Shown piece after piece: positions 2 to 33,045 of a DNA stretch of 33,785 bases; positions within the stretch are counted from its first letter, which is position 1; the number at the start of each line of letters is the position of its first letter. Made by a program: the position numbers and the translations under genes. Origin of the DNA: Candidatus Parcubacteria bacterium (lineage in GTDB: Bacteria > Patescibacteriota > Patescibacteriia > UBA1558 > GWA2-36-10); contig QZJA01000006.1 in assembly GCA_003599205.1 (NCBI GenBank), positions 1-33,785 on the forward strand. Direction: 5' to 3'. The notes beneath the pieces are model-generated. The model was not told the origin of the DNA and made no database searches. It saw only the letters and a list, made by a program, of their open reading frames with translations.

Positions 2-1057
2 GGCAATGTCGGCATTGGCACCAATGATCCAAAATCAGCTTTGCATGTGGCCAGCGATGTAGCCAATGGTAGTGATCTTAGATTACTTAATACTACTGGA
101 GACATGAGTATTATTTTTCAAGAATATATTGGTCCAAGTGACAACGGAGATTTTTTTGTCACTTACAATGGCGGTACTGGTGGTTTTGCTAATTGGCTGG
201 AATTCAAAGGTAAACCAGGCTCTCAAAATCTAGACGACGGTCGCCCAGTCATGACGCTACAAAGAGACTATAATGCTCCAAACAATACTTACAAAGGAGT
301 GGGTATTGGCGTACCACAACTGCATAATATAAATGCTAAACTTCGAGTGCAGAACTACGGCACGGAAGATATTCTCCAGCTTTACGATGGTAATAATATT
401 ACTTTCCAGGTCAAAGACGGAGGAGCTGTTGGTATTGGTGGAACTAATGTACATACAGGTACTCCTTTATTCATCAATGGCTCAGGCGGAACTACTGGAC
501 TTAAATTATATCCAGAAGGTATTCATTCTTGGAATACCACTGGTCTTGAGTTAAAGGCTACTAATGATATTTATTTAAATCCGGGAGCAGATAATGGTGT
601 GGGTGTAGACGTGATAAATCCACAACAAATTTTACATGTCAAAAATCCAGCAGATAGTTTTGCGGATACAAAATTTAGGTTGGATAATAGTTATACTAGT
701 TCTTTCCTTAATCAAACAACACAAATAGAATTTTCTCGTGGACCTAATATAGCGACTCATTATTCTTGGTTTGGACCAAGTAATGCTGGTACTTTTGATA
801 TTTGGACAAATGAAGACATACCAATAGTCTTTGGTTCAAATAATCTAGAATTAGCAAGAATGAGTGAGACAGATTTGACTCTGGCCGGATACTTAAAGTT
901 GGGGACACAGTCTGGAATTCCGAGTGCCCTTGATTGTTTGGTAGTAGGGGATATGGGTAGAATGAAAATGGATACTAGAACAGGTATTATTTATGCTTGC
1001 GTAGGTGATCCTAACAATGGTGTACCTGGCACTTGGAAGACAATAACACTTCAGTAG
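2..1057 (+). CDS. Secreted repeat protein, 5'-truncated by the window edge; function unknown
   Basis: The frame is open from nt 2, before the listed ATG at 41. Translation starts GNVGIGTNDPKSALHV, the same V-G-I-G...LHV-type repeat seen again inside this ORF and in the next ORF. The C-terminal DC...T.TG...C...GT.W module is shared with 1093-2325. Confidence 0.7.
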   Translation, partial: GNVGIGTNDPKSALHVASDVANGSDLRLLNTTGDMSIIFQEYIGPSDNGDFFVTYNGGTGGFANWLEFKGKPGSQNLDDGRPVMTLQRDYNAPNNTYKGVGIGVPQLHNINAKLRVQNYGTEDILQLYDGNNITFQVKDGGAVGIGGTNVHTGTPLFINGSGGTTGLKLYPEGIHSWNTTGLELKATNDIYLNPGADNGVGVDVINPQQILHVKNPADSFADTKFRLDNSYTSSFLNQTTQIEFSRGPNIATHYSWFGPSNAGTFDIWTNEDIPIVFGSNNLELARMSETDLTLAGYLKLGTQSGIPSALDCLVVGDMGRMKMDTRTGIIYACVGDPNNGVPGTWKTITLQ

Positions 1058-1092
1058 TATATTTTTAATATTTAAAATTTTAATCAACGGCT

Positions 1093-2325: not shown

Positions 2326-2355
2326 ATGTTAATTTTTAAAATCTCTTAGATATAA

Positions 2356-4597: not shown

Positions 4598-4643
4598 TAT
4601 ATAAACATTTTGTTTTAAATTGTTAAAATCTTTCGCAGAAATT

Positions 4644-5855
4644 ATGAAATTATTTTCTAGTGCAACTAGTTACTTAGGAATTGATATTGGTACATCCAGC
4701 ATTAAGATGGTGGAACTTGAAAACTACAAAGATCAGGCCAGATTGAAGACCTATGGTTATGCTGAAGTTTCTACTAATGTTTTACGTGGTAATATAGAAA
4801 GAAATAATCAGTTGGTAGCTGATTATATCAACAATATAGCTCGAAAATCTCAAGCTCAAACTAGGCAAGTAGTGGCCGCACTACCGACTTTTTCGGTTTT
4901 TAATTTTATTATAAATTTGCCGCCAATGCCCAAAAAAGACCTAGCTTCAGCCATAAAATGGGAAGCTAAAAAGTTTATTCCCGTGCCGATAGAGGAGATG
5001 ATACTTGACTGGAAAATTCTAAACAAAAAAAAGGTAGATAGTGGCGGTAAAAAAGACCTAGTTGGTGGAATTTTGGGCAATAAAGACGGAAAAACTCCTC
5101 AAAATGAAGCTTCATCAGACCAGTCTAGTATTGATAATTTGTCAGACAACGGGGCCAAAGATATGGTTGCTGGCAAAGCTGACTCAGAGGTGCTTGAGTA
5201 CAAGAGTAAACAGTCAGACAAAAATTATCGGATATTACTTACAGCTGCTCCCAAAAATTTGGTAGCGCGCTATATAGATATTTTCAAAAGAGCAAAATTT
5301 AATTTGCTTAGTTTAGAGACGGAGGCTTTTGCCTTGTCACGTTCTCTGATTGGTAATGATTTGTCTACCGTTATGATAGTCGATATCGGAGCGACTAATG
5401 CTGATATTTGTATTATTGAGCAGGGTGTACCGATATTGAATCGTGGTATTGATACGGGCGGTGAATTTATCACCAAAACTATCATGAATAGCTTGAATGT
5501 AAATCAAGAAAGAGCAGAACAATTCAAAAGAGATTTTGGTTTGTCTGATATTGGTGGCTACAAAAATGTTCCCGATGTAATTCAGAAATCTTTGAATTCT
5601 ATCATCAATGAAATAAAATATGTTTTTGAAATTTATCAAAAACAAGGCACGGTCAAAATTGACAAAATAGTTTTGACTGGCGGAAGTTCATTTTTGCCAA
5701 ATTTACCAAATTATTTATCTGAGTTATTAGATTTGCCGGTAGTTATCGGTGATCCTTGGGATAGAGTCATTTATCCTTTGGATCTAAAGCCAATTTTGCA
5801 AGAAATTGGTCCGAGAATGTCAGCGGCAATTGGTTTAGCTATGCGCGATATTTAA
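4644..5855 (+). CDS. pilM: Type IV pilus assembly protein PilM (actin-like ATPase fold)
   Basis: MKLFSSATSYLGIDIGTSSIKMVEL N-terminus, later VDIGATNADICII and LTGGSSFLPNL. The ORF track starts at TTG 4620; ATG 4644 gives the typical PilM N-terminus. Either start is possible. Confidence 0.85.
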   Translation: MKLFSSATSYLGIDIGTSSIKMVELENYKDQARLKTYGYAEVSTNVLRGNIERNNQLVADYINNIARKSQAQTRQVVAALPTFSVFNFIINLPPMPKKDLASAIKWEAKKFIPVPIEEMILDWKILNKKKVDSGGKKDLVGGILGNKDGKTPQNEASSDQSSIDNLSDNGAKDMVAGKADSEVLEYKSKQSDKNYRILLTAAPKNLVARYIDIFKRAKFNLLSLETEAFALSRSLIGNDLSTVMIVDIGATNADICIIEQGVPILNRGIDTGGEFITKTIMNSLNVNQERAEQFKRDFGLSDIGGYKNVPDVIQKSLNSIINEIKYVFEIYQKQGTVKIDKIVLTGGSSFLPNLPNYLSELLDLPVVIGDPWDRVIYPLDLKPILQEIGPRMSAAIGLAMRDI

Positions 5856-5858
5856 AAT

Positions 5859-7142
5859 ATGACGGCTGATAAAGGTATCAATTTAATGCCCGAAGACCTA
5901 AGGTCTAAGGAAGACGAAGCTCTGGCAAAAAAGAGGAGTGTTTTTGATCTTGATTTAGTAACGCCAAATTTGACTCCAGGGCAGGCAACAGGTAAACCAA
6001 CTGGCGGTCAAGAATCTTTTTGGTCAAAATTTTTGGCTATTTTTAAGCCAAAAGTAAAAGAGCCAAAGATCAAGGAAAATAAGGTCAAAGATAATGATGG
6101 TTCTATTTTAGCCAGAGAAATAAAGAGAAACAAAGATACCCATAAAGAAGTAGAAGTAGTAGAGCACAAAATAGCTCAGCCGCAAACACCAGCAATAAAT
6201 CTGGCCAAAGCAAAAAACGGCAATGGCTCTATCTTGGCCAGAGAAATAAAGAGAAATGGCTATGATAAATTGCCGGAAACAAAACCAGAACTACCAAAGA
6301 TTGAGGAAAAGCAAATAAAAAATGATTTTTTCATTCCTGAAGAGCCAAAGCTACAGGTGATGTCTCAGCCGAAACCAGAACCAGAAGTACCACAGCCAGA
6401 GAAGAAAGACAAAGAGAAAAAAGAAGAAAAAAAGAAGGCCAAAAAACCCGAAAAAGATCAGGATAAAAATTTAGGCTTTCATGAACCAGAAGCTCGTGTA
6501 AAATCAAAATTCATGAGTGAAGGTGGGGGCGTTGATTTGATTCCGACTTCAGTCAAGGTTAGGAGTTGGCGTCAGATCAGTAATTTGATTTTGTTATCTT
6601 TGATTGGTTCGGTGGTGATAGTAGGTATATTTTATGGTTCTTTGTTTATACAAGAGAGGAATATCAAGGCCAACCAAGCCAATCGTGATCGTCAAATATC
6701 TGATCTGGAGGTTGAAATATTAAAATTTGAAGCATTCAACCAGACGATTGATGTTTTGGGCAAAAATATAAAAATGACTCATGAGGCCTTAAACAAGCAT
6801 ATACACTGGATAAATTTCTTTGAGCTTTTGGAAAAGTATACGGTGTCTGATGTTTACTACCATGGTTTTGCTGCCGGCAATGATGGGGCTTTGACGCTCA
6901 GTGCTACTGGCGGATCATATGATTCCGTGGCTAAACAGCTCAAACTTTTACAGCAAGATGAGGCCAAAGAATTTGTTCAATCAGTTGCTATATCTGGTGC
7001 TCAGATGGGTGGTAGCGGAGTTGAATTTAGTATGGTTTTGGTCTTAAATCCGGATATATTTTATTACCAGGAAGATATTTTGGGAAATGACAATCAGGAC
7101 AATGATGATGATCAAGGGGATGACCAAGGTCAAAGGAACTAA
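5859..7142 (+). CDS. PilN-like bitopic pilus assembly protein with a long Lys/Glu-rich N-terminal extension and an acidic tail
   Basis: Lies directly after pilM. Single TM segment ILLSLIGSVVIVGIFYGSLFI followed by a coiled-coil-like segment (QISDLEVEILKFEAFNQ), which is the PilN architecture. About 230 aa of low-complexity sequence precede the TM segment. Confidence 0.6.
   Translation: MTADKGINLMPEDLRSKEDEALAKKRSVFDLDLVTPNLTPGQATGKPTGGQESFWSKFLAIFKPKVKEPKIKENKVKDNDGSILAREIKRNKDTHKEVEVVEHKIAQPQTPAINLAKAKNGNGSILAREIKRNGYDKLPETKPELPKIEEKQIKNDFFIPEEPKLQVMSQPKPEPEVPQPEKKDKEKKEEKKKAKKPEKDQDKNLGFHEPEARVKSKFMSEGGGVDLIPTSVKVRSWRQISNLILLSLIGSVVIVGIFYGSLFIQERNIKANQANRDRQISDLEVEILKFEAFNQTIDVLGKNIKMTHEALNKHIHWINFFELLEKYTVSDVYYHGFAAGNDGALTLSATGGSYDSVAKQLKLLQQDEAKEFVQSVAISGAQMGGSGVEFSMVLVLNPDIFYYQEDILGNDNQDNDDDQGDDQGQRN
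6099..6257 (+). repeat. Two copies of a 33-nt direct repeat (6099-6131 and 6225-6257, 29/33 identical) inside the PilN-like gene
   Basis: ggttctattttagccagagaaataaagagaaac versus ggctctatcttggccagagaaataaagagaaat. Both encode GSILAREIKRN. Confidence 0.85.
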
Positions 7143-7154
7143 TTTTTTATAAGA

Positions 7155-7850
7155 ATGACCAAAGATAAAGAAATAAAATTTGAACAGCCATCAGAAATAT
7201 TGATCATAGTCAATCGCTATGTGATGATTATTATGGCGGTGATTATATTGGGTATTTTGGCTTTGGGTTATTTTTTCTTATTATCACCAAAGATAGCTAG
7301 TATCAAAGTTATAGAACAAGAAACTACCGATATTGAGCAAAGGAGAATATTAAACGAAAATTTATTGACCAAGATAAAGCAGCTTCAGTTCGAGTATGAT
7401 GGTTTAATTGAAGACCGTGAAGGTCAACTGTCAAAGTTACTCAAAGTCATACCGGATGAACCACAACTAGCAGAATTGTTTGTTTTGACAGAAAGGCTAG
7501 CCAAGCAAAGAGGTTTTGAATTGCAATCAATAAATATTTCTGAAGGAAGCACTTCTTCTGGTTCGGTTAATCCCGATGGCAGTAGTGCTGTTGTGTCAGA
7601 AGAAGGTCTTAAATCTTTGGTTATACACGCCAATATAGCTTATGGTTCTGAAGCTGTAGAGGGTGACAAAAAACAATCTTCAGACGAAGAGGAAGTCAAA
7701 ACTCCTTACCAGATTTTCAAGCAGTACTTGGTTGATTTGGAAAATAATTTACGTTTGATGGATGTCCAAGCAGTTAGCTTTGGTTCACTTGATCCTACTT
7801 TGGAGGGAGCAGTAAGCTTTAGTTTTGATATTATTACTTATTATAAATAA
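7155..7850 (+). CDS. PilO-like bitopic pilus assembly protein
   Basis: Third gene of the pilM-N-O order. N-terminal TM segment VMIIMAVIILGILALGYFFLL followed by a coiled-coil region. Assignment rests on position and architecture only. Confidence 0.55.
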   Translation: MTKDKEIKFEQPSEILIIVNRYVMIIMAVIILGILALGYFFLLSPKIASIKVIEQETTDIEQRRILNENLLTKIKQLQFEYDGLIEDREGQLSKLLKVIPDEPQLAELFVLTERLAKQRGFELQSINISEGSTSSGSVNPDGSSAVVSEEGLKSLVIHANIAYGSEAVEGDKKQSSDEEEVKTPYQIFKQYLVDLENNLRLMDVQAVSFGSLDPTLEGAVSFSFDIITYYK

Positions 7851-7852
7851 TT

Positions 7853-8212
7853 ATGGCTAGTCACGATAGTAAAAAAACTTTGTATATACTATTTGCCGTT
7901 CTAGGAGTTGTCATTATCGGTGGCGGTATTTGGTTTTTCCAATTTATGAAGCCTGTAGAAACATTGACTTTTGATGTTGAGGGTGACGCTCAAGTAAGTA
8001 AAGTTTACGCCATCAAACAGCTGGCGGCCAAAAATGTCATTGATTTTATGGGTTCTAAGACCTCGCAGGCGACCATATTGGATCAGGTTTATAATGACCC
8101 CCAGTATCAGGCTTTAAAGGATTTTGAAGTTGTGATTGATATCAAAGAAGGTATTGGTAATGAAGAGCCATTTGCCCCGATAGTTTTAGAGGATGTTTCA
8201 GAAGAAGAATAA
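7853..8212 (+). CDS. Small membrane-anchored protein in the pilus operon, function unknown
   Basis: TM segment LYILFAVLGVVIIGGGIWFF and an acidic C-terminus. Tightly packed between the pilO-like gene and pilB. Confidence 0.6.
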   Translation: MASHDSKKTLYILFAVLGVVIIGGGIWFFQFMKPVETLTFDVEGDAQVSKVYAIKQLAAKNVIDFMGSKTSQATILDQVYNDPQYQALKDFEVVIDIKEGIGNEEPFAPIVLEDVSEEE

Positions 8213-8226
8213 AAATTTAGTTGTTT

Positions 8227-9963
8227 ATGACACCAGAGGAAACAAAAAAACTTTTTGATTATATCAGAGAGCAAAATTTTATAAATGACGACCAATATCA
8301 GGAACTCATGCAGCAAAAATTTTCTTCTTTTGCTGAAATGGAAAAATATCTGCGTCGTGTTGCTTTGCTTTCCGGAGAAGATTGGACCCAGGCTAAGGGT
8401 GTTTTTTATGGTGTGGAATATGCCAATTTGATTGGCAGAAATATAGATTCTGAAGTTTTAAATGTTTTGCCACAGAGCTTGTCAGAAAATTATCAAATGG
8501 TAGTTTTCAACAAAGAAGGTGGCAATTTGGAAGCTGGACTAGTAGATCCAACCAACTTCAAAGCTATTGAAGCGCTTAATTTTTTGGCGCGTAAGAAAGA
8601 GTATAAGGTCAAATATTATATAATATCCGAAGAGAGCTACCGTGCCGCTGCCAAGCAGTATGAAACCTTGGGTGAAGAGGTAGGTGAAGCTTTGGATACG
8701 GCCGAAGCTATTTTTGCTCCCAAAGAGGATATTTATGATGCTGATGAAGATGTTGAAGACGTTGTCAAAAGCGCTCCAGTATCAAAAATAGTTTCAGTTG
8801 TATTGCGCCACGCTATTGAGGGGCGAGCTTCAGATATTCATATTGAGCCGGTTGGCAATCAAAGCAAAGTGCGTTATAGGATTGATGGTGTTCTTCATAC
8901 AACCATTGTTTTGCCGATTTATGTGCATTCCGCTTTGGTATCAAAGATAAAAGTTATGGCCAACCTGAAGATTGATGAAACTAGGATTCCTCAAGATGGC
9001 CGTATTAGAATGAAAATTCACAACAAAGATGTTGACTTCCGTATATCTACTTTGCCGCTCATGGGTCAAGAAAAAGTAGTTATGCGTATTTTGGAAACTC
9101 CAGAAAAGGCTCCGAGTTTTGGCGATTTGGGCTTTATGGGTTTACAGCTCAAGGTAGTAGAGGAAAACATTTACAAGCCGAACGGTTTGTTTCTCCTTAC
9201 TGGTCCGACTGGTTCAGGAAAATCAACTACTTTGTTTGCCGCTTTGAATTATTTGAATAAAGAAGAAGTAAATATAGCCACTCTGGAAGATCCAGTAGAG
9301 TATTATATCCCCGGTGTTAATCAGTCTCAGATTAGACCAGAAGTAAACTATACTTTTGCCAGCGGTCTAAGAGCTTTGCTTCGTCAGGATCCAGACATCA
9401 TCATGGTCGGTGAGATTCGTGACAATGAAACAGCTGAGTTGGCTATCCATGCCGGCTTAACTGGACACTCAGTCTTGACGACTCTTCATACCAATAGTGG
9501 TATGGGAGCCATTCCTCGGTTGTTTGATATGCAAGTGGAGCCATTTCTCCTAGCTTCTACTTTAAATGCTGTTATTGCTCAACGTTTGGTGAGGAAGATA
9601 TGCCCCAAATGTAAAGTAGAAGAAAAATTACCTTCAGAGGTAATTAAACATGCCAAGGAAGTGTTGGACAGCATACCAAAGGAAGCTCTTTATCCAAATG
9701 TAGACAGCAACAACATGAAATTTTATCGCGGTCAGGGTTGTGCCAATTGCGGCCAGACAGGGTACAAAGGGCGTTTGGCTATTGTCGAAGCTATCAATGT
9801 CACCCGAGGTTTGCAAGATATAGTAGCTAGAGGATTTGCTCGTGCTGAAGCAGAAGAAGAGCTTAGGAAACAATTTTTTACCAACATGGAACAAGACGGC
9901 ATTGAAAAAGTCGTTTTGGGTATGACCACCATGGAGGAAGTCATGAGAGTAAGTAAAGCTTAA
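8227..9963 (+). CDS. pilB: Type IV pilus extension ATPase PilB (GspE family)
   Basis: Canonical Walker A LTGPTGSGKSTTL, Walker B LLRQDPDIIMVGEIRD, His box TGHSVLTTLHTN, and the tetracysteine motif CPKCK...CANCGQTGYKGR. The ORF track starts at TTG 8221; ATG 8227 is preferred. Confidence 0.93.
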   Translation: MTPEETKKLFDYIREQNFINDDQYQELMQQKFSSFAEMEKYLRRVALLSGEDWTQAKGVFYGVEYANLIGRNIDSEVLNVLPQSLSENYQMVVFNKEGGNLEAGLVDPTNFKAIEALNFLARKKEYKVKYYIISEESYRAAAKQYETLGEEVGEALDTAEAIFAPKEDIYDADEDVEDVVKSAPVSKIVSVVLRHAIEGRASDIHIEPVGNQSKVRYRIDGVLHTTIVLPIYVHSALVSKIKVMANLKIDETRIPQDGRIRMKIHNKDVDFRISTLPLMGQEKVVMRILETPEKAPSFGDLGFMGLQLKVVEENIYKPNGLFLLTGPTGSGKSTTLFAALNYLNKEEVNIATLEDPVEYYIPGVNQSQIRPEVNYTFASGLRALLRQDPDIIMVGEIRDNETAELAIHAGLTGHSVLTTLHTNSGMGAIPRLFDMQVEPFLLASTLNAVIAQRLVRKICPKCKVEEKLPSEVIKHAKEVLDSIPKEALYPNVDSNNMKFYRGQGCANCGQTGYKGRLAIVEAINVTRGLQDIVARGFARAEAEEELRKQFFTNMEQDGIEKVVLGMTTMEEVMRVSKA

Positions 9964-9974: not shown

Positions 9975-10367
9975 ATGCCAGAAAGAAAAGTATTAGTTGT
10001 AGAAGATGATGATTTTTTGTTGGAGATGTACAGCACCAAACTTGAGCTGGAAGGCTTTAAAGTATACAACGCTACCAGTGGTATGCAAGGCTTAAAAGTC
10101 GCTCAAAGAGAGCTACCAGATTTAATACTTTTGGATTTGAATCTGCCTGAGATGAGCGGTTTTGAGGTTCTGGAGCATCTAAAAAATGGAGACACTACTA
10201 AAGATATATCGGTAGTTGTCTTGACCAACTATTCACAAAAAGATCATATTGATCGTTGTCTTGATTTGGGAGCTGATGATTATTTGATCAAGGCTCATTT
10301 TGTACCTTCAGAGGTTATCAGCAAGATAAAAAAAATATTAGACGAAAAAGAAACGCAAAATAAATAG
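9975..10367 (+). CDS. Single-domain response regulator (CheY-like receiver only)
   Basis: VLVVEDDD acidic pocket, phospho-acceptor context LILLDLNLPEMSG, VVVLTN, and YLIKA (conserved Lys). There is no output domain. Confidence 0.88.
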   Translation: MPERKVLVVEDDDFLLEMYSTKLELEGFKVYNATSGMQGLKVAQRELPDLILLDLNLPEMSGFEVLEHLKNGDTTKDISVVVLTNYSQKDHIDRCLDLGADDYLIKAHFVPSEVISKIKKILDEKETQNK

Positions 10368-10371: not shown

Positions 10372-11436
10372 ATGCCAGATACTTTACTTATAAATAATAT
10401 TTTAAATATTGCCTCAGAGAGGAAAGCAACCGATGTTCATCTGATTGCTGGCAATAGTCCTGTCATTAGAGTTGATGGGCGTCTTGTTACTTTGACTGAA
10501 GAGAAAGTTTTGACACCGAGTTCGCTCAATAGCGTAGCGGAAATTATCTTGACCAAAGAGGACATTGAGCGTTTGGGTCAGGAAAGGGAGGTTTCTACTA
10601 TTTATTCCTGGAACAATCGCGCTCGTTTTAGAATCAAGGCTTTTTACCAAAAAGGCTTTATTGCTATTTCCATGCGTTTGATTCCGGCTTATATCCGCTC
10701 ACCCAAAGATTTGGGCATTCCTCAAGCAATTATTCAGCTGTTAAACAGGGAAAAAGGTCTATTGATAATTACTGGTCCCTTTGGCAGTGGCCGGACAACG
10801 ACAGTAGCTTCACTTTTGGAAACATTGAATCAAAACAAAGGTGTCCATATCCAGACTTTGGAAAAACCAATTGAGTATTTATTTGCCAATAACCAATCAG
10901 TTATTGAGCAGAGAGAAATTGGCAAAGACGTAGCAGATTTTTCTCAGGGCATTGCTGATGTAATAGATGAAGATATTGATGTAGTTTATATTTCAACGGT
11001 TCATGAGTTTGGTATAGAAGAAAAAATATTGGAATTGGCAGAAAGTGGCAAATTGGTGATTATAGTAATGGATGCCGATTCGGTAATTTCTGCTATTGAG
11101 AGATTTATCAGCGATCTGCCTCAAGAAAAAAGAGAGTGGGGGCATGATCTTTTAGCCGATGTATTGCTCGGTGCTTTGGGCCAGCGTTTACTGCCTAGGA
11201 TAGGTGGAGGATTTTCTTTGGCTTGTGAAGTTTTGACTAGTATCCCAGCAGTCAAATCCAGCATCAGAGAGGACAAACTTCATCAGTTGAGCAGTATTAT
11301 GCAGACTTCAAAGGATGAGGGCATGATTGATTTGGATAAAGCTCTCTTGGCCAAGATAAGAGCCGGTGAGGTCAGCCCCGAAGATGCTATGAATCAAGCG
11401 CTTGATCCGCAAATATTTAAACAGAATTTTAGTTAA
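10372..11436 (+). CDS. pilT: PilT-family hexameric ATPase homolog with degenerate catalytic motifs
   Basis: PilT-like N-terminus ATDVHLIAGNSPVIRVDGRL, IEQREI, and AVKSSIREDKL (AIRNLIRE-like). However, Walker A is GPFGSGRTT (Lys to Arg, CGG at 10792-10794), the Asp box is LEKPIEY, Walker B reads DIDVVYISTVHE and the His box reads SGKLVIIVMDAD. Confidence 0.8.
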   Translation: MPDTLLINNILNIASERKATDVHLIAGNSPVIRVDGRLVTLTEEKVLTPSSLNSVAEIILTKEDIERLGQEREVSTIYSWNNRARFRIKAFYQKGFIAISMRLIPAYIRSPKDLGIPQAIIQLLNREKGLLIITGPFGSGRTTTVASLLETLNQNKGVHIQTLEKPIEYLFANNQSVIEQREIGKDVADFSQGIADVIDEDIDVVYISTVHEFGIEEKILELAESGKLVIIVMDADSVISAIERFISDLPQEKREWGHDLLADVLLGALGQRLLPRIGGGFSLACEVLTSIPAVKSSIREDKLHQLSSIMQTSKDEGMIDLDKALLAKIRAGEVSPEDAMNQALDPQIFKQNFS

Positions 11437-11438: not shown

Positions 11439-12647
11439 ATGGCTGTCTATAAATATCGATCCAGAAATAATGACGGTCGGATAACCGTCGGTGTAGTAGA
11501 AGCTAGCAATCAAAGTGAAGCGGCTGAATTGTTGATGGACAAAGGTCTAATAGTTTTGTCTTTGGCCGAAACAAGTGCCAAATCAAAAACGGGACTCAAT
11601 ATAAATATTGGTCGAATAAAGCATAAAGATATAGTTATATTTTCTCGTCAGCTTTCGGTCATGATTTCCGCTACTGTGCCGATAGTGCAATCACTCAAGA
11701 TATTGGCGCAGCAGACAGTTAATCCTATTTTTATAGAAAAAATTATTGAAATAGCCAACGATGTTGATGGCGGTATGAAGCTGTCTGATGCTTTGGGCAA
11801 GCACAAAAAAGTTTTTAGTCATTTTTATGTAGCTATGGTCAGATCCGGCGAGACTTCTGGTCGTTTGGATGAGGTCTTGGAATATTTGGCTGATCAGATG
11901 GAAAAGGATTATGATTTGGTCTCTCGTATCAAGGGAGCGATGATTTATCCGATATTTATTATTGGTGGTATGATAGCGGTCGGTGCTCTAATGATGGTTT
12001 TTGTGGTGCCCAAGATGACCCAGATGCTCAAAGATACTGGCACTGAGCTGCCACTTTTGACCAGGATACTGATAGGTACTTCAGATTTTATTCAGAGCAA
12101 CGCAATACTTCTCTCTTTGACATTAATAATTTTGATAGTTTTGACCAAAGTGTGGGTCAGCTCAACGGCTGGTAAGGTTGCTTGGGATTCAGTCAAAATA
12201 AACATTCCTATATTTGGTACTTTATTTAAAAAAATATACATTGTCCGTTTTACCAGGAGCTTATCCACTTTGATTAGAGGTGGTGTGCCAATTGCCGTAG
12301 CTTTGCGTATTACTGGTGAGGTTGTGGATAACCGAGCTTATGAAAAATTGATTATGGATACAGTCGCTGAAGTAGAGGGAGGTAATTCTATTGCTACTTT
12401 GTTTGTCAAGTCTGATTTGGTGCCAAAGATGCTTTCACAGATGATAGTTATTGGTGAGCGCACTGGCAAATTGGACACTGTTTTGGAAAGATTGAGCGAT
12501 TTTTACAGCCGAGAAATAGACAATTTGGTCCAGGGCCTGACATCTTTGATTGAGCCTTTGATACTTATCATCATGGGTGTCGGTGTCGGCGGTATGGTAG
12601 CGGCTATTATGTTGCCAATGTTTAAGGTAGCCCAGAGCATATCCTAA
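11439..12647 (+). CDS. pilC: Type IV pilus platform protein PilC (GspF family)
   Basis: 402 aa with two GspF-type repeats, three TM segments and the typical N-terminus MAVYKYRSRNNDGRITVGVVEA. Confidence 0.92.
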   Translation: MAVYKYRSRNNDGRITVGVVEASNQSEAAELLMDKGLIVLSLAETSAKSKTGLNINIGRIKHKDIVIFSRQLSVMISATVPIVQSLKILAQQTVNPIFIEKIIEIANDVDGGMKLSDALGKHKKVFSHFYVAMVRSGETSGRLDEVLEYLADQMEKDYDLVSRIKGAMIYPIFIIGGMIAVGALMMVFVVPKMTQMLKDTGTELPLLTRILIGTSDFIQSNAILLSLTLIILIVLTKVWVSSTAGKVAWDSVKINIPIFGTLFKKIYIVRFTRSLSTLIRGGVPIAVALRITGEVVDNRAYEKLIMDTVAEVEGGNSIATLFVKSDLVPKMLSQMIVIGERTGKLDTVLERLSDFYSREIDNLVQGLTSLIEPLILIIMGVGVGGMVAAIMLPMFKVAQSIS

Positions 12648-12681: not shown

Positions 12682-12808
12682 AATTGTATAATTAAATAAT
12701 TTTTAAACATTAACATCCTTAGCGCTCATCTTAATAAAGTTAGAACTTTAGGGATTCCGAGCTTTAACTTTTATTAATTTGAGCACTAGTATGAAGGGAG
12801 GTGAAACA

Positions 12809-13234
12809 ATGAGACAAAAAGGATTTACTTTAGTTGAGTTGTTAGTCGTTATCGCTATTATTGGTATTTTATCAACAGTAGCAATCGTCAATTTAAACAG
12901 TGCTCGTGACAAGGCCAAATTTGCGTCAGCTCAATCTGCTATGTCACAAATGGCCACTCCAATGATTCTGTGTATGGATGAAGAAGTGGGTGGTGGTACG
13001 GTTACTTGGCTCGCTAATGGTCCTGTAGCAAACCAAGAACCATGTGATGCGACTGCCGTTGATGGGTCTGAATTTCCAGATCTAGGAACCGGTTGGTCTT
13101 ATAGTGCCACTGGAGCGTATTGGGGGCATGACTATGATACTTATGAATGGCATTTCTGTGCTGTAAGTACTAGTGGAGACGATATTGATTGTACCCAAGA
13201 TGGTTGTTCAGCAACATCAACTTGTCCAGTATAG
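12809..13234 (+). CDS. Major type IV pilin (type IVa-like short leader)
   Basis: MRQKG/FTLVELLVVIAIIGIL class III signal with Glu+5. A strong SD, AAGGGAGGTG, lies 6 nt upstream of ATG 12809. The listed TTG 12779 start would translate through this SD. It has its own promoter and terminator and six Cys in the globular domain. Confidence 0.88.
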   Translation: MRQKGFTLVELLVVIAIIGILSTVAIVNLNSARDKAKFASAQSAMSQMATPMILCMDEEVGGGTVTWLANGPVANQEPCDATAVDGSEFPDLGTGWSYSATGAYWGHDYDTYEWHFCAVSTSGDDIDCTQDGCSATSTCPV

Positions 13235-13273
13235 TAACAATTTAGTAAAAAATTTAATTTAGAAAACAAAAGG

Positions 13274-13300
13274 TCTCTCTTTTATAAAGAGGGATTTTTT
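13274..13300 (+). terminator. Rho-independent terminator after the pilin gene
   Basis: A 9-bp stem (13274-13282 with 13286-13294, including one G-U pair), a 3-nt loop, then TTTTTT at 13295-13300. Confidence 0.7.
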
Positions 13301-13341
13301 GTTTTGTTGGGATTTATGCTATAATAAAGACAAGTTTTTAT

Positions 13342-13776
13342 ATGTTTAAGGCATACAGCGTAAAAGTAAAAGTAATATTTATTGTTGTCATAGTTTTGGC
13401 CATTGTTTTGCTAATTGTGTTCAACAATTACAACAAAGGCAAGGCTAGGGATTTACAAATGGTTATTCAGGCAAAATCATTAGCTATTTCTCTGGAAGAA
13501 TATTATGACAAGTTCAATGCTTATCCAGCTACTGCTAGTGTTTCTTTGGATAGTATTTATACTGTTACTCAAGCGGGACTTAATCAAAATGAAGGCGTTA
13601 TTTATTTTAAGCGGGATTTTGAGTGGGCTAGGCCAGGTAAATATTTGAGTGATGGCAGAAATTATGCGATTGATTTTGATCTGGATTATGGTTGGTCAGT
13701 CTGGGGTCTAGACAGGGACGGTGGTAAGTGCCGAGTTTCTACCAATGTAACTATGGCCTGTATAGCTGATAATTAG
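13342..13776 (+). CDS. Pilin-like membrane protein lacking a prepilin cleavage motif
   Basis: N-terminal hydrophobic helix VIFIVVIVLAIVLLIVF followed by NKGKARDLQMVIQAKSLAISLEEYY. This resembles the post-helix region of the pilin (NSARDKAKFASAQSA), but there is no G/F-x-x-x-E site. Confidence 0.6.
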   Translation: MFKAYSVKVKVIFIVVIVLAIVLLIVFNNYNKGKARDLQMVIQAKSLAISLEEYYDKFNAYPATASVSLDSIYTVTQAGLNQNEGVIYFKRDFEWARPGKYLSDGRNYAIDFDLDYGWSVWGLDRDGGKCRVSTNVTMACIADN

Positions 13777-13817
13777 ATATATTATTTTTCGAACAATTAT
13801 GTTATAATAAAACTACT

Positions 13818-14597
13818 ATGATAGTAGTTTTTGTTTTAATTTTTGGCTTATTTATTGGTAGCTTCCTCAACGTGGTTATTTATCGTTTGCATCGCGAGGA
13901 ATCTTTTGTTAAAGGCAGTTCCAAGTGCCTTTTTTGCGGGCATAGACTGTACCCAAAGGATTTAATTCCTTTATTTAGCTATGTATTTTTGAGAGGGCAC
14001 TGCCGTTATTGTCAGCAGAGGTTTTCCTCGCAATATCCTTTGGTAGAAGCCACCACAGCTTTGGCTTTTATTTTAATTTTTATAAATATTTTTCCTCAAG
14101 ATAGCTGGAATTACGCGCAGATAACGGATTATTTTAAATTGTTATCTTGGTGGACAATGGCTTCTTTTCTAATTATTATTTTTGTTTACGATTTGAGATA
14201 TTATTTGATTTTAGACAAAGTAATATTGCCGGCGATTATTTTTTCTTTTTTTGCCAATCTGGTGCTTGGTCATAATTGGTGGCAGATGCTGTTGGCCGGA
14301 GTTGTCGGTGGCGGTTTCTTTTTGTTGCAGTATGTTTTGTCAAAGGGTCGTTGGATCGGAGGAGGCGATATCCGCCTAGGGGCACTGATGGGTATAATTT
14401 TGTCTTGGCCCCATGTTTTGACGGCATTATTTATTGCTTATATTTTAGGTAGTATAATTAGCGTAATTTTGCTTTTGGGTAGCAAGAAAGCTTGGGGAGA
14501 TAAAGTTCCTTTTGGTACTTTTTTGTCCTTAGCTACTTTTGTTACTTTATTGTATCATCAGGAGTTAACAAATTGGTATTTTTCTTTATTTAGTTAA
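13818..14597 (+). CDS. pilD: Prepilin peptidase PilD (A24 aspartic peptidase)
   Basis: N-terminal CLFCGHRL...CRYCQQRF cysteine pairs. Multiple TM segments carry the two catalytic Asp contexts VYDLRYY and GGGDIRLG. Confidence 0.9.
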   Translation: MIVVFVLIFGLFIGSFLNVVIYRLHREESFVKGSSKCLFCGHRLYPKDLIPLFSYVFLRGHCRYCQQRFSSQYPLVEATTALAFILIFINIFPQDSWNYAQITDYFKLLSWWTMASFLIIIFVYDLRYYLILDKVILPAIIFSFFANLVLGHNWWQMLLAGVVGGGFFLLQYVLSKGRWIGGGDIRLGALMGIILSWPHVLTALFIAYILGSIISVILLLGSKKAWGDKVPFGTFLSLATFVTLLYHQELTNWYFSLFS

Positions 14598-14610
14598 TAA
14601 ATAAAATATT

Positions 14611-15264
14611 ATGAGAAAAATTTTTAAGAATCGAGCAGGGTTCTCTTTCATTGAGCTGATCATAGCCGTGGCTATCATCATCATTATTTCTTCTGTATTT
14701 ATAGTCAATGTCCGACTCAATACGCAAGAAGATGTTCGCACTAGTACTGAAAAATTGGCAGCTGATATAAGGTATATAAGAAATTTGGCTGTTTCGCGAG
14801 CTGAGTATCAGTTTGCCGATCAGACCGCTGATCAAAAAACCTATCCAGCTGGTGGTTATGGTATATTTTTTTATGGTAGTCTGGCTAGGGACAAGTATTT
14901 TATTTTTGCCGATGATGGCACTACTATTGGTTACCAAGCAGATTCAGACGAAATTTTATATGAAGTGGAAGTTTATCCTTTGTTGCTTGATGATCAAAAT
15001 GGTCCTTTGACTGATTTTTGGTTTACTTTCATCAGTGAAAATCAAGTCGTGAGTTCTATGGGTTTGGCCGCCGATAAGAAATACATGGTTAACTTGAGAG
15101 AAAATATCGGCACTTGGGGTACCGGCTATCAGGGTAGTTTGGTGCTGGGTGAAGTCTCTAGTGATGGTTATGTTTGGAGCAATATTGGCACTTCTTATAG
15201 CACTTTCAGTATTGCCAAACCGGCGCCACTACCAAAAGATCCAGAAGAAGCCATGGAAATTTAA
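14611..15264 (+). CDS. Minor pilin / pseudopilin with class III signal
   Basis: MRKIFKNRAG/FSFIELIIAVAIIIII. Confidence 0.8.
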   Translation: MRKIFKNRAGFSFIELIIAVAIIIIISSVFIVNVRLNTQEDVRTSTEKLAADIRYIRNLAVSRAEYQFADQTADQKTYPAGGYGIFFYGSLARDKYFIFADDGTTIGYQADSDEILYEVEVYPLLLDDQNGPLTDFWFTFISENQVVSSMGLAADKKYMVNLRENIGTWGTGYQGSLVLGEVSSDGYVWSNIGTSYSTFSIAKPAPLPKDPEEAMEI

Positions 15265-15899
15265 TGTCCGAAAAAAATATAAACAAAAATCAAGGTTTTA
15301 CTTTGATAGAACTGTTGATTGCAATAGCGGTATTTACCTTAGGCATAATGGGTGCCTTTACTTTGGCTTTGGCTAATATCAATACTATCAGGGAAAATTT
15401 TAATAGAGTTTTGGCAGCTAATATTTCCCGCGAGGGAGTGGAAATAGTCAGAAATATGCGGGATAGCAATTGGTTGAGAGAAGAGGCTAATGAATATTGT
15501 GGCGCTTATATTTGTTCTTGGTCTGATGGTTTAACGGCCGGTTTTTATTATGCTGATTATAATGATGCGGCTTTAAATCCTTTTGTTTGCTCAGATCTTG
15601 ATGCTTGTATTTCCAGCTGTACTAATTCCGGCATTTGCTCCCTTTATTTGAATAGTAATGTCTATGATCATACTATTGGTCCCAACAAAAGTAACATGTC
15701 TCGGATTATTCAGATAGAAAATATTTGTATTGTTGATGCTAGTGGTGCTCCAGTAGAGGATATTAGAACTTCAAGCTGTGATAAATCTGCTGGCGAGATT
15801 GATGCTGGCATCAGAGTGACTTCTAGAGTGCGCTGGTCCGGTAGAGACAAAAATATTGACATTGATTCGTCAGAGCTTATTTATAATTGGCGCAGATGA
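15264..15899 (+). CDS. Minor pilin with class III signal
   Basis: MSEKNINKNQG/FTLIELLIAIAVFTLG. Its ATG overlaps the upstream TAA by 1 nt (TAATG). Confidence 0.8.
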   Translation: MSEKNINKNQGFTLIELLIAIAVFTLGIMGAFTLALANINTIRENFNRVLAANISREGVEIVRNMRDSNWLREEANEYCGAYICSWSDGLTAGFYYADYNDAALNPFVCSDLDACISSCTNSGICSLYLNSNVYDHTIGPNKSNMSRIIQIENICIVDASGAPVEDIRTSSCDKSAGEIDAGIRVTSRVRWSGRDKNIDIDSSELIYNWRR

Positions 15900-16540
15900 T
15901 GGATAAAAAAAACAACCAAGGCTTTACTCTGCTAGAACTTCTGATTACAGTCGGTATTTTTTCTATGACGGTTTTGATGGTGGCCGGTATCTATGTAGCT
16001 TTTTCAAAAAATCAAGCTCGAGCCAAGGCAGCTCAGACTTTGCTTAATAATTCCCAATATACTTTGGAAATAATTTCTCGAGAAATAAAAAATAATGAAA
16101 TTTTTGATTATAACCCCAATAATTCTGGTGGCCTTTGCGGGGCAGTGAGTTGCTGTAATTATTATATTGGTCCAGATTATGAAAGCTGTATCTTGCTACA
16201 AAAGCCTGATGGGCAATTAGTCGCTTTTGTGGCTGATTTGAGCCTGGATCAACAAAAAGTATTTTATGTTGTTCCACCAGGAGATTCTTATGCTCAGTCT
16301 CCATGGGAGTCAGTGGAAGAGGCTTACACTAAATTATTAGCTCCGGAGTTAAATGATGTAGTAGTTGAAAGTTTGGATTTTTATTTTTCTCCTGATACCG
16401 ATCCTTTTGTGGTTGGTGGTCCAAATTTACAGCCCAAGGTGACTATCAACATGAATACGGTCTATGATACCGAGCAAATCATCGCCCAAGTGTCATATCG
16501 TCTTCAGACAACAATTTCATCTCGTATATATAAGCGTTAG
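15896..16540 (+). CDS. Minor pilin with class III signal
   Basis: MMDKKNNQG/FTLLELLITVGIFSM. ATG 15896 forms an ATGA overlap with the upstream TGA stop (15897-15899). The listed TTG 15887 is less likely. Confidence 0.8.
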   Translation: MMDKKNNQGFTLLELLITVGIFSMTVLMVAGIYVAFSKNQARAKAAQTLLNNSQYTLEIISREIKNNEIFDYNPNNSGGLCGAVSCCNYYIGPDYESCILLQKPDGQLVAFVADLSLDQQKVFYVVPPGDSYAQSPWESVEEAYTKLLAPELNDVVVESLDFYFSPDTDPFVVGGPNLQPKVTINMNTVYDTEQIIAQVSYRLQTTISSRIYKR

Positions 16541-16544
16541 ATTT

Positions 16545-17414
16545 ATGGAAAAATTTTTCCACAAGGTTAAAGAAAAAGATCAAAATGGCATGATTTTAGT
16601 TATGGCCATTATGATTTTGTCTATTGTGCTTACTTCTGTTTTAGCTTTGAGTCAGATAATTATGGGTGAGCTCAAGATGTCTTTAAACGCTGGTAATTCA
16701 ATTTTGGCTTTTTATTCAGCTGAAAGTGGTATAGAAAAAGGTTTGTATTATATAAAATATTCTCGAGAAAATAGTGATTTTAGTGATTTTATAAAATTGT
16801 CATACACTACGTCTTATAATGTAGATGATTTGGGAAATAAAAAATTTGTTATTTCAACATCCACTATTCTTGGCGGAGTGACGGATTTTTATGGTGTTAG
16901 TACTACTTCACCAGCCTATTTGGATATCATGGATCCGGCCGGAGCAGTTGGTATTATTGATTGGTCTGCTAGCGTTGGCTTGCCTAGTTATACTCAGATT
17001 TTTTGGGAAATAGAAAATTGTTTTCCTCTGCATGCTTCAGACAAGCTTGAGGTTACTATCAATTCTTTTGCCCAGGAATTTTCTGATCCCAAAACAGAGA
17101 CTAGGATAGCTATCTGTAATTGTGGTTATGGTGACGATGATTGTGATATTAGCTCTTATAGCAATATCAGTCCCAATAGGTATTATCATTTTTCTTTTAG
17201 GCCGCTGGATAGTGAAATAAAAGAATTGAATTTTAGAATGAGAAATGCCGCTAATGCTGAATTGAAAATAATGTCATCTGCCTTGATTGAAGCTTATGGT
17301 GAATACAGCAATTCACGCTATCGTCTTCAGGCAACAGTACCGACCTTAAATCCTGTTTCTGATGTTTTTAGTTATGTCTTATTTTCGGAAGAGGATTTGA
17401 CTAAAGGCTTATAA
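16545..17414 (+). CDS. PilX-like minor pilus protein (N-terminal anchor, no cleavage motif)
   Basis: MEKFFHKVKEKDQNGMILVMAIMILSIVLTSVLAL followed by AFYSAESGIEKGLYY, resembling the PilX N-terminal pattern. The listed start at 16464 overlaps the previous gene by 77 nt; ATG 16545 lies 5 nt after its stop. Confidence 0.65.
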   Translation: MEKFFHKVKEKDQNGMILVMAIMILSIVLTSVLALSQIIMGELKMSLNAGNSILAFYSAESGIEKGLYYIKYSRENSDFSDFIKLSYTTSYNVDDLGNKKFVISTSTILGGVTDFYGVSTTSPAYLDIMDPAGAVGIIDWSASVGLPSYTQIFWEIENCFPLHASDKLEVTINSFAQEFSDPKTETRIAICNCGYGDDDCDISSYSNISPNRYYHFSFRPLDSEIKELNFRMRNAANAELKIMSSALIEAYGEYSNSRYRLQATVPTLNPVSDVFSYVLFSEEDLTKGL

Positions 17415-30793: not shown

Positions 30794-30796
30794 CGT

Positions 30797-31705: not shown

Positions 31706-31708
31706 ATT

Positions 31709-32200: not shown

Positions 32201-32205
32201 AATAT

Positions 32206-32610: not shown

Positions 32611-32614
32611 CAGG

Positions 32615-33037: not shown

Positions 33038-33045
33038 TTTTATAT

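What the first reader, a model, noticed from the sequence alone, without database searches (positions are those of the whole stretch)
10372..11436. The only PilT-like ATPase in the locus has every catalytic motif degraded
The neighbouring PilB keeps textbook motifs: GPTGSGKST, DPDIIMVGEIRD and TGHSVLTTLHTN. The PilT homolog keeps the family fold markers: ATDVHLIAGNSPVIRVDGRL, IEQREI and AVKSSIRE. But its catalytic motifs all differ from the canonical PilT pattern:
- Walker A is GPFGSGRTT (invariant Lys to Arg).
- The Asp box is EKPIE where PilT has EDPIE.
- The Walker B region reads VVYISTVHE where PilT has ILVGEMRD, so the catalytic Glu is lost.
- The His box reads SGKLVIIVMDAD, so both His are lost.
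This pattern predicts a non-hydrolysing pseudo-ATPase retained under selection, since the frame is intact and the gene is translationally packed between the response regulator and pilC. It may act as a regulatory or structural partner of PilB/PilC rather than a retraction motor.
Basis: partly seen in the sequence, partly recalled or inferred. Interest (0 to 1): 0.7.

Follow-up and report, generated by a model that had tools for sequence, protein, structure and literature searches.

The report
Conserved catalytically remodelled PilT in Parcubacteria
In a large group of ultra-small (CPR/Parcubacteria) bacteria, the pilus operon's own retraction-motor gene has lost the residues needed to burn ATP but kept those that grip it, and it is still under strong selection, so these cells probably retract or regulate their pili without a conventional retraction motor.

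Summary
ORF 10372-11436 (354 aa) has a confident PilT fold (pLDDT 93; TM 0.91 to ATP-bound Geobacter PilT4). It has Arg for the Walker A Lys, Thr for the catalytic Glu, and Lys/Asp for the two His-box histidines, and it lacks the second Asp-box residue.

This is not private decay. Of the 120 closest protein clusters, 119 carry GxxxSGR[ST], all from Patescibacteria where named. The gene sits in the slot (PilB-REC-PilT-PilC) that holds a fully canonical PilT in most sampled CPR lineages, so it is the operon's own PilT orthologue, remodelled.

Within the 93-member near clade, the phosphate/Mg-binding scaffold is invariant: P-loop glycines, R141, T142, E164, E168 and three N-domain arginines. The catalytic-base, R207 and D161 positions are among the 4-8% most variable sites.

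pN is about 0.1 against a saturated pS of about 0.7. The protein evolves about 1.6-fold faster relative to PilC than canonical CPR PilT does.

Best reading: a nucleotide-binding, hydrolysis-dead PilT ring acting as a non-motor gate or regulator. Whether a canonical PilT exists elsewhere in these genomes could not be tested. I found no prior description.

The parts
10372..11436 (+). PilT* : PilT-fold protein (354 aa) with remodelled catalytic motifs. It is the positional orthologue of the CPR pilus operon's PilT.
   Evidence: ORF. Pfam T2SSE 66.5 bits. TIGR01420 pilT_fam 287.7 bits, below the 319.1 cutoff. PDB PilT hits down to E 1.5e-70. AF2 pLDDT 93.1 and TM 0.91 to 6OJX.
10624..10632 (+). 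RFR (R85, R87), equivalent to PilT-Gm R81/R83: N-domain arginines next to the nucleotide site. Retained.
   Evidence: R85 is in 93/93 and R87 in 92/93 of the near clade, the same as in canonical PilT. Roles from PMC6858323.
10675..10677 (+). R102: third conserved N-domain arginine. Retained.
   Evidence: 93/93 in the near clade and 194/194 in canonical domains.
10774..10800 (+). Walker A variant GPFGSGRTT: Lys to Arg (R141), Thr133 to Phe (F137). Glycines and T142 are kept.
   Evidence: Alignment. R141 is in 93/93 near and 25/25 far clade members; F/Y137 in 93/93; T142 in 87/93.
10858..10878 (+). Asp box LEKPIEY: E164 and the Mg-contacting E168 are kept; D161 is replaced by K165.
   Evidence: E164 and E168 are invariant. 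Position 165 falls among the 8% most variable sites.
10972..11007 (+). Walker B region DIDVVYISTVHE: the catalytic Glu is replaced by T209, R207 by H211, D208 by E212.
   Evidence: Position 209 reads S35 A27 C7 G5 E5 T3 and is among the 6% most variable sites. E212 is in 92/93.
11038..11082 (+). His box AESGKLVIIVMDADS: T221 to S225, H223 to K227, H230 to D234.
   Evidence: S225 84/93, K227 86/93 (R in 7), D234 81/93. No His at either position in the near clade.
11128..11142 (+). KREWG: clade-specific motif with an invariant Trp (W256) where canonical PilT has Gln.
   Evidence: W in 93/93 of the near clade and 64% of the far clade. Canonical representatives have Q at 0.93.
11248..11271 (+). 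AVKSSIRE: counterpart of the PilT-specific AIRNLIRE motif, partly retained.
   Evidence: A293 and I298 are conserved in at least 90% of alignment A1. Clade variants are AV[KRQ]SSI[KR][DE].
8221..9963 (+). PilB extension ATPase with fully canonical motifs and an N-terminal MshEN domain.
   Evidence: T2SSE 425 bits, MshEN 38 bits, TIGR02538 511 bits. Motif strings checked.
9975..10367 (+). Single-domain response regulator (REC) with an intact acidic pocket, D54-type acceptor, and Thr and Lys.
   Evidence: Pfam Response_reg 87 bits. Residues checked. Present between PilB and PilT in 33 canonical and 13 non-fully-canonical sampled CPR loci.
11439..12647 (+). PilC platform protein.
   Evidence: Pfam T2SSF 203 bits, two repeats.
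4620..8212 (+). PilM, followed by three ORFs in the PilN / PilO / small-protein positions.
   Evidence: PilM_2 159 bits. The other three have no Pfam hit and are assigned by conserved position only.
12779..17414 (+). Major pilin, a 144-aa unknown ORF, prepilin peptidase PilD, three N_methyl minor pilins and a PilX_N protein.
   Evidence: N_methyl, A24_N_bact/Peptidase_A24 and PilX_N hits.

Best explanation
The gene is the pilus operon's own PilT orthologue. In one large sub-radiation of Parcubacteria/Patescibacteria it has been converted from a motor into a nucleotide-binding ring that hydrolyses ATP very poorly or not at all. Shown: it keeps the two-domain PilT fold; it keeps the elements that clamp the triphosphate and Mg (P-loop backbone glycines, an Arg at the Lys position, T142, E164/E168, and arginines R85/R87/R102/R272); and it partly keeps the PilT-specific AIRNLIRE-like helix. 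Shown: it has lost the catalytic base (E205 equivalent), the gamma-phosphate histidine (H230 equivalent) and the Walker A lysine, and the catalytic-base position is now free to vary. Inferred: the protein still forms a hexamer that docks on the PilC/PilM platform in competition with PilB. Inferred: ATP binding still closes the subunits, so the ring acts as an ATP-dependent gate or switch. Once PilB is displaced it would allow slow, filament-driven (motor-independent) retraction, or it would set the extension/retraction balance, possibly under control of the adjacent response regulator. It would not generate retraction force itself.
For: Fold: AF2 pLDDT 93.1, pTM 0.88. The best PDB matches are all PilT, with TM 0.91 to ATP-bound PilT4 6OJX, then PilU, DotB and PilB. 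Motif losses rest on a nearly gapless alignment and were verified against canonical controls. Clade-wide conservation: 119 of 120 nearest clusters have GxxxSGR[ST]. Split constraint in 93 near-clade sequences: R141, E164, E168, R85 and R102 are invariant, and R87, T142, E212, K227 and R272 are at least 92% conserved. The E205, R207 and D161 positions are among the 6%, 4% and 8% most variable sites. The whole G-E-x-R element is conserved in canonical PilT but free to vary here. Purifying selection: pN 0.094-0.117 against pS 0.69-0.74, similar to PilB and PilC. Relaxed but real constraint: PilT is more conserved than PilC in 99% of 1,326 canonical CPR pairs but in only 1% of 136 degenerate pairs; at PilC identity 0.5-0.6, PilT identity is 0.63 versus 0.39. 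Orthologous slot: PilM..PilB-REC-PilT-PilC holds a fully canonical PilT in 61 of 81 PilT-like ORFs in the 80 sampled loci, and PilT* in the rest. The same downstream synteny (PilC-pilin-PilD-minor pilins-LigA-GatC-GatA) follows canonical PilT in L007 and L009. No second PilT-like gene lies within 6-10 kb in 12 in-operon PilT* loci read with their flanks or on the readable part of the source contig. [quoted passage not shown] Motor-independent retraction is a documented property of type IV pili (bioRxiv 10.1101/2021.02.10.430637). From my own knowledge rather than a test: Walker A Lys-to-Arg mutants such as RecA K72R bind nucleotide but hydrolyse it very slowly.
Against: No biochemical data exist, so loss of hydrolysis is inferred from sequence only. 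The near clade has a conserved cluster of carboxylates (E212 92/93, D234 81/93, D236 75/93) close to where the gamma-phosphate sits, plus a conserved K227, which could form an alternative catalytic arrangement. The more distant PilT* subfamilies keep the Walker B Glu (17 of 25), so some members may retain slow activity. Hexamer formation and docking on PilC/PilM are assumed, not tested; two interface covariation tests were not significant. A canonical PilT or PilU elsewhere in the genome has not been excluded, and the gating or passive-retraction role has no direct support.
Confidence: 0.5

Rival explanations
1. Adaptor for a separate motor. PilT* keeps only the machine-docking function and recruits a second, catalytically intact PilT/PilU-type hexamer encoded elsewhere in the genome. 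That second hexamer supplies the retraction force, as happens when ATPase-dead PilT mutants still support PilU-driven retraction.
For: In Vibrio cholerae and Acinetobacter baylyi, PilT Walker A/B mutants still retract through PilU, whereas a pilT deletion does not (PMC6821130; PMC6762196). Proteins fusing a degenerate PilT half to a canonical half exist (P0129, P0182, P0189, P0224), so such pairings are structurally possible. Canonical PilT families do exist in Paceibacteria.
Against: No second PilT-like gene lies within 6-10 kb in 12 in-operon PilT* loci or on the source contig. pilU is often encoded beside pilT (PMC6762196 abstract). CPR genomes are about 1 Mb and streamlined. The canonical Paceibacteria PilT occupies the same slot as PilT* rather than a separate locus. 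The one named fusion is from Verrucomicrobiota, not CPR.
Confidence: 0.17
2. Still a working retraction ATPase with a rewired active site. R141 replaces the Lys, one of E212/D234/D236 replaces the catalytic Glu, and K227 replaces a histidine, giving a slower but functional motor.
For: The substituted residues are themselves conserved in the near clade: R141 100%, E212 99%, K227 92%, D234 87%. All phosphate/Mg-binding residues and arginine fingers are intact. The near clade has lost E205 but keeps E212, whereas far clades keep E205 and vary at 212.
Against: No replacement carboxylate is shared across the radiation. The 71 representative clusters show a mosaic of states, and 4 have no acidic residue at any of the four positions. 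D234 is replaced by N, G, S or V in some near-clade members. The rate of evolution relative to PilC and PilB is clearly raised, as expected for lost rather than rewired catalysis. Single substitutions E204A and H229A already abolish PilT function.
Confidence: 0.15
3. A decaying relic: a PilT gene on its way to loss with no remaining function.
For: Several catalytic residues are lost, and it evolves faster than neighbouring pilus genes.
Against: About 120 full-length, frame-intact homologue clusters at 43-84% identity were listed. pN is far below pS. Thirty-one positions are identically conserved with canonical PilT, and there are new clade-specific invariant residues (R141, W256). Tight operon packing is conserved.
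Confidence: 0.02
4. Alignment artefact: the catalytic residues are present but shifted.
For: None found.
Against: The alignment to solved PilT structures is nearly gapless. Canonical controls read K/D/E/E/H/H at the same columns. Foldseek superposition gives TM 0.91.
Confidence: 0.01

Closest known systems
Canonical PilT retraction ATPase (e.g. Geobacter metallireducens PilT4 6OJX, P. aeruginosa PilT 3JVV, Aquifex PilT 2EWV)
   Same: Same two-domain fold (TM 0.85-0.91), same length, same operon slot next to pilB and pilC. Also shared: the N-domain arginines, P-loop glycines, Asp-box glutamates, the QRL motif and a partial AIRNLIRE motif.
   Different: Lacks the Walker A Lys, the catalytic Glu, both His-box histidines, T133, D161, R195 and R207. 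Scores below the TIGR01420 cutoff. Evolves faster than PilC instead of slower.
Engineered ATPase-dead PilT (Walker A / Walker B mutants) in Vibrio cholerae and Acinetobacter baylyi
   Same: A PilT that cannot hydrolyse ATP yet still contributes to pilus dynamics (PMC6821130).
   Different: Those are laboratory point mutants and depend on a co-encoded PilU. Here the state is natural, ancient, multi-site and clade-wide, and no PilU-like partner was seen near the locus.
PilU and other PilT paralogues (Geobacter PilT1-4, Myxococcus PilT paralogues)
   Same: Members of the same PilT/PilU family and fold.
   Different: All characterised paralogues are reported to keep the Walker A, Asp box, Walker B and His box (PMC5065972; PMC13584747). 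They are additional copies, whereas PilT* sits in the operon's PilT slot.
Nucleotide-binding, non-hydrolysing partners of secretion-type motors, e.g. archaellum FlaH/ArlH, and degenerate nucleotide sites such as NSF-D2 or degenerate ABC sites (from my own knowledge, not tested here)
   Same: The concept is the same: a P-loop protein or site that binds ATP for assembly or regulation rather than for work.
   Different: Unrelated or only distantly related families. The resemblance is functional analogy only.

Membership tests
Pfam PF00437 T2SSE (type II/IV secretion system protein E superfamily) | Profile score above the gathering threshold (24.9 bits) | tested here: met
   66.5 bits, E 2.2e-18, residues 6-276
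NCBIfam TIGR01420 PilT/PilU family type 4a pilus ATPase | Whole-protein score at or above the curated cutoff (319.1 bits) | tested here: not met
   287.7 bits over the full length (7-346 of 354). It is the best-scoring family but falls below the cutoff.
PilT retraction ATPase | Two-domain PilT fold (N-terminal PAS-like domain plus RecA-like C-terminal domain) | tested here: met
   AF2 pLDDT 93.1. The top 30 PDB matches are all PilT or PilU, with TM up to 0.92.
PilT retraction ATPase | Walker A GxxGxGK[ST] with the invariant Lys | tested here: not met
   GPFGSGRTT: Arg at the Lys column in 93/93 near-clade sequences, against K in 194/194 canonical domains.
PilT retraction ATPase | Asp box E-D-P-I-E | tested here: inconclusive
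   E164 and the Mg-contacting E168 are retained and invariant. The D161 equivalent is K165, and that position is variable in the clade.
PilT retraction ATPase | Walker B hhhhGE with the catalytic Glu (E204 in Pa, E205 in Gm) | tested here: not met
   T209. The column reads S/A/C/G/E/T and is among the most variable sites.
PilT retraction ATPase | [quoted passage not shown] | tested here: not met
   K227 and D234. No His at either column in the near clade.
PilT retraction ATPase | PilT-specific AIRNLIRE motif | tested here: inconclusive
   AVKSSIRE keeps A, I, R and E. A293 and I298 are conserved in at least 90% of the family alignment.
PilT retraction ATPase | Encoded in a type IV pilus cluster beside pilB/pilC | tested here: met
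   PilM-N-O-x-PilB-REC-PilT*-PilC-pilin-PilD-minor pilins. The same slot holds canonical PilT in other CPR loci.
PilT retraction ATPase | ATP hydrolysis and force-generating retraction | not testable with these tools
   Needs a purified-protein ATPase assay and in vivo pilus dynamics.
Pseudoenzyme (pseudo-ATPase) | Clear homology to an active enzyme family, with loss of residues shown to be essential for catalysis | tested here: met
   Essentiality of E204 and H229 from PMC6858323.
Pseudoenzyme (pseudo-ATPase) | Maintained by purifying selection, i.e. not a pseudogene | tested here: met
   pN 0.09-0.12 against pS about 0.7. About 120 full-length homologue clusters listed.
Pseudoenzyme (pseudo-ATPase) | Demonstrated lack of catalytic activity | not testable with these tools
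   Biochemistry is required.
PilU (PilT-dependent accessory retraction ATPase) | Intact catalytic motifs; encoded in addition to a PilT | tested here: not met
   The motifs are not intact. It is the only PilT-like gene in the operon.

The most novel reading that the evidence does not exclude
A whole sub-radiation of Parcubacteria runs its type IV pilus with no retraction motor at all. PilT* would be the only PilT homologue in the genome and would work as an ATP-binding, non-hydrolysing ring. It would switch the PilC platform from PilB-driven extension to passive, filament-driven retraction, possibly under control of the adjacent CheY-like regulator. That would be a natural, energy-saving alternative to motor-driven retraction in cells with minimal energy budgets.
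Probability: 0.3. Interest if true: 0.8.

Novelty: new variant of a known kind. Interest (0 to 1): 0.66.

Why it matters
PilT is regarded as one of the strongest molecular motors, and its catalytic residues are treated as universal. [quoted passage not shown] A widespread, selected clade in which the operon's own PilT lacks the Lys, Glu and His residues is a natural experiment on the non-catalytic roles of PilT: docking, displacing PilB, recruiting partners and sensing.

It also bears on how CPR bacteria, which depend on pili for host attachment and DNA uptake, retract their pili. In practical terms, these genes are annotated as 'PilT retraction ATPase', 'TadA' or 'hypothetical'. Metabolic reconstructions that infer twitching or forceful retraction from their presence may therefore be wrong for these lineages.

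Tried and rejected
1. Charge swap at the R195-D161 inter-subunit salt bridge (D199/K165). It is common in the near clade, but there is no covariation when one representative per 50% cluster is used (Fisher p = 0.79). Not used as evidence for retained interfaces.

2. Size compensation between T133 (to F/Y) and T221 (to S/A/G). Not significant within degenerate representatives (p = 0.55).

3. Migration of the catalytic carboxylate from position 209 to 212/234/236. The pattern is suggestive between near and far clades but is a mosaic across 71 representative clusters. Kept only as a caveat.

4. Co-occurrence of PilT* with a canonical PilT in one genome. I compared longest-contig values between the PilT* and canonical hit lists and found no overlap, but both lists are top-120 subsets. 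It is therefore uninformative about absence.

5. The NJ tree places 108 of 119 degenerate sequences in one clade. The stem is very short, there are no support values, and long-branch attraction is likely. Treated as weak.

6. Is REC a PilT*-specific partner? Rejected: REC sits between PilB and canonical PilT in 33 sampled loci.

7. Look-up of the left-edge ORF (window 1093-2322) found no record. From the contig coordinates the window appears to begin at the contig end.

8. One search was a malformed literature query.

9. Model coordinates are not exposed, so active-site geometry could not be inspected.
Full report
**1. The observation**

The window carries a complete Gram-positive-style type IV pilus cluster on the + strand:
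- PilM (4620-5855), then three ORFs in the PilN/PilO/small-protein positions
- PilB (8221-9963)
- a single-domain response regulator (9975-10367)
- the finding's ORF (10372-11436, 354 aa)
- PilC (11439-12647)
- a pilin, PilD and four minor-pilin-like genes
- then LigA and housekeeping genes

The ORF is intact. It lies 4 nt after the regulator's stop and 2 nt before the pilC start.

The register is right. phmmer aligns the protein almost without gaps to Aquifex PilT (2EWV, E 1.5e-70). It pairs GPFGSGRTT with GPTGSGKST, LEKPIEY with IEDPIEY, DIDVVYISTVHE with DPDVIFVGEMRD, and AESGKLVIIVMDADS with AETGHLVFGTLHTNT. The same column mapping returns K, D, E, E, H, H in canonical control sequences.

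The protein passes Pfam T2SSE. Its best NCBIfam family, PilT/PilU TIGR01420, scores 287.7 bits, below the 319.1 cutoff. An AlphaFold2 model built on 76 homologues is confident (pLDDT 93.1). It superposes on ATP-bound Geobacter PilT4 with TM 0.91, and PilT ranks ahead of PilU, DotB and PilB. No other PilT-like gene is in the window or in the 10 kb of the 47.1-kb source contig beyond it.

**2. It is a clade, not a one-off**

The exact protein is on record as a 'hypothetical protein' of a Candidatus Parcubacteria MAG. Of the 120 nearest 90%-identity clusters, 119 have Arg at the Walker A Lys column, none has the His-box histidines, and all that carry names are Patescibacteria. The one canonical hit is a Lentisphaerae PilT.

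An exhaustive HMMER search of 50%-identity representatives shows a much larger and very divergent set. Seventy-one of the 150 best representatives are single-domain PilT-like proteins of about 355 aa that lack different subsets of the catalytic residues. The commonest state (111 domains) keeps only E164. The next (33 domains) also keeps the Walker B Glu. H230 is lost in nearly all.

A crude neighbour-joining tree puts 108 of 119 degenerate sequences in one clade with no canonical members. The stem is very short and long-branch attraction is likely, so I treat single origin as unproven.

**3. It is the operon's own PilT**

Orthologues at 63-84% identity, and even the 44-48% 'far' subfamilies, sit in the same context: three large unknown ORFs, PilM-N-O-x, PilB, REC, PilT*, PilC, pilin, PilD, minor pilins, LigA, GatC, GatA.

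PilM..PilB-(REC)-PilT-PilC is the general CPR operon. In 61 of 81 PilT-like ORFs the slot holds a fully canonical PilT (Saccharibacteria, Giovannoni-, Sungii-, Taylor-, Yonath-, Kaiserbacteria and others), and the regulator is present in 33 of those. In another Paceibacteria lineage, a very conserved canonical PilT (top 120 clusters at least 81% identical) precedes the same PilC-pilin-PilD-minor pilins-LigA-GatC-GatA block.

PilT* is therefore a positional orthologue of canonical PilT, not an added paralogue, and the regulator is not specific to it.

**4. What selection is doing**

I mapped residues to the Geobacter PilT numbering used by McCallum et al. 2019 (PMC6858323). The query reads:
- R81 = R85, R83 = R87, and R102 retained
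- T133 to F137, K137 to R141, S138 to T142
- E160 = E164, D161 to K165, E164 (Mg contact) = E168
- R195 to D199, E205 (catalytic base) to T209, R207 to H211, D208 to E212
- T221 to S225, H223 to K227, H230 (gamma-phosphate) to D234
- R278 = R272

In the 93-member near clade:
- R141, E164, E168, R85 and R102 are invariant.
- R87, T142, E212, K227 and R272 are at least 92% conserved.
- The E205, R207 and D161 columns are among the 6%, 4% and 8% most variable sites of the protein.

Against a non-redundant canonical set, 31 positions are identically conserved in both groups. The whole G-E-x-R element, D161 and P198 are conserved in canonical PilT but free to vary here. Eight positions have switched to a new conserved residue: K to R141, D to E212, T to S225, H to K227, L to M233, H to D234, T to A235 and Q to W256.

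This is the signature expected if triphosphate/Mg binding and domain closure are still selected while canonical hydrolysis is not.

Codon-level comparison with two orthologues at 80-84% identity gives pN 0.094-0.117 against pS 0.69-0.74. Synonymous sites are saturated, so the nominal dN/dS of 0.03-0.07 is only rough. The values are similar to those for PilB and PilC.

Relative rates are inverted. In 1,326 canonical CPR locus pairs, PilT is more conserved than PilC in 99%. In 136 degenerate pairs that holds in 1%. At PilC identity 0.5-0.6, the median PilT identity is 0.63 versus 0.39 (first seen). Constraint is clearly relaxed but far from absent.

**5. Mechanism**

Experiments show that E204A and H229A abolish PilT function, and H230 is described as conserved across the whole PilT/VirB11-like family. 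With the Lys, the Glu and both His residues replaced, and the base position drifting, the most likely state is a ring that binds nucleotide but does not turn it over at motor rates. Walker A Lys-to-Arg mutants such as RecA K72R behave this way; that statement is from my own knowledge.

The PilT fold, the arginine fingers, a partial AIRNLIRE motif and the operon slot are all retained. I therefore infer that the protein still forms a ring that docks under PilC/PilM and competes with PilB. Once PilB is displaced, the ring could gate or permit the slow motor-independent retraction documented for type IV pili, or tune the extension/retraction balance. That part is inference.

Rivals:
- An adaptor for a separate canonical PilT/PilU, by analogy with ATPase-dead PilT mutants that still support PilU-driven retraction. 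No partner gene lies near any of the 12 in-operon PilT* loci examined, but the rest of the genomes could not be read.
- A rewired, slow ATPase using E212/D234/D236 and K227. These residues are conserved in the near clade, but the wider radiation shows a mosaic with no common replacement.
- A decaying relic, or an alignment artefact. Both are excluded.

**6. Comparison with what is known**

The searchable CPR literature simply lists PilT as a retraction ATPase. The Saccharibacteria study reports well-conserved Walker boxes for its PilT, which agrees with the canonical Saccharibacteria loci seen here. Searches combining PilT with pseudo-ATPase, or with candidate phyla radiation and catalytically inactive, found no paper; a search with Parcubacteria and retraction found 10 papers, and the two I opened do not describe this state. 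All characterised PilT paralogues in Geobacter and Myxococcus are reported to keep the four motifs.

I therefore file PilT* as a new, naturally occurring catalytic-site variant of the PilT family. It fails the family's defining catalytic features and the curated TIGR01420 cutoff, while meeting the fold, superfamily and context criteria.

**7. Limits**

- No biochemistry is available.
- Hexamer formation was not tested.
- Two interface covariation ideas were tested and were not significant.

Noticed in passing
L040:5983-8121 (also L019:5989-8129 and L018): A different degenerate PilT-like gene (Walker A Lys kept, both His lost, GPF P-loop) forms an isolated pair with a 350-aa PilM paralogue. 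The pair sits between Der-Pth and Mfd-DprA, with no PilB or PilC within 6 kb. This may be a second, orphan PilT'/PilM' module in some Patescibacteria.
   Followed up: partly
proteins P0122-P0131, P0129, P0182, P0189, P0224: Tandem PilT-PilT fusion proteins of 660-1024 aa. Most join two canonical halves, but four have a degenerate N-terminal half joined to a canonical C-terminal half. P0189 is from a Verrucomicrobiota MAG.
   Followed up: partly
window 41-4560: Three large ORFs (338, 410 and 734 aa) with no Pfam hit lie directly upstream of PilM. ORFs in the same positions (sizes vary between loci) occur in every PilT* locus read with upstream flank, so they are likely part of the pilus system.
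   Followed up: no
window 13342-13776: A 144-aa ORF with an N-terminal hydrophobic segment but no N_methyl or other Pfam hit. A 143-145 aa ORF is conserved at this position between the major pilin and PilD across related loci.
   Followed up: no
L007:10001-11071, L009:10001-11071: The canonical PilT of another Paceibacteria lineage is exceptionally conserved (the top 120 clusters are at least 81% identical). It heads a split operon (MraY-like | PilT-PilC-pilin-PilD-minor pilins-LigA) with PilM/N/O/PilB elsewhere.
   Followed up: partly
window 11128-11142: Clade-specific motif [KR][RK]xWG with an invariant Trp (W256) where canonical PilT has a conserved Gln. It may be a new interaction surface.
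   Followed up: no
window 10372-11436 and its homologues: Annotation is inconsistent. PGAP calls members 'hypothetical protein', 'Flp pilus assembly complex ATPase component TadA' or 'ATPase, T2SS/T4P/T4SS family', while JGI calls them 'twitching motility protein PilT'.
   Followed up: yes
window 8221-9963: PilB carries an N-terminal MshEN domain (38 bits). In other systems this domain type binds c-di-GMP (from my own knowledge; not examined further).
   Followed up: no
window 29761-33720: A compact run of seven + strand genes, six with Pfam hits in nucleotide metabolism: dCMP deaminase, a P-loop kinase-like protein, ThyA, DHFR, dUTPase/DCD-like and thymidylate kinase; one small ORF has no hit. 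GatB follows just beyond the window.
   Followed up: no
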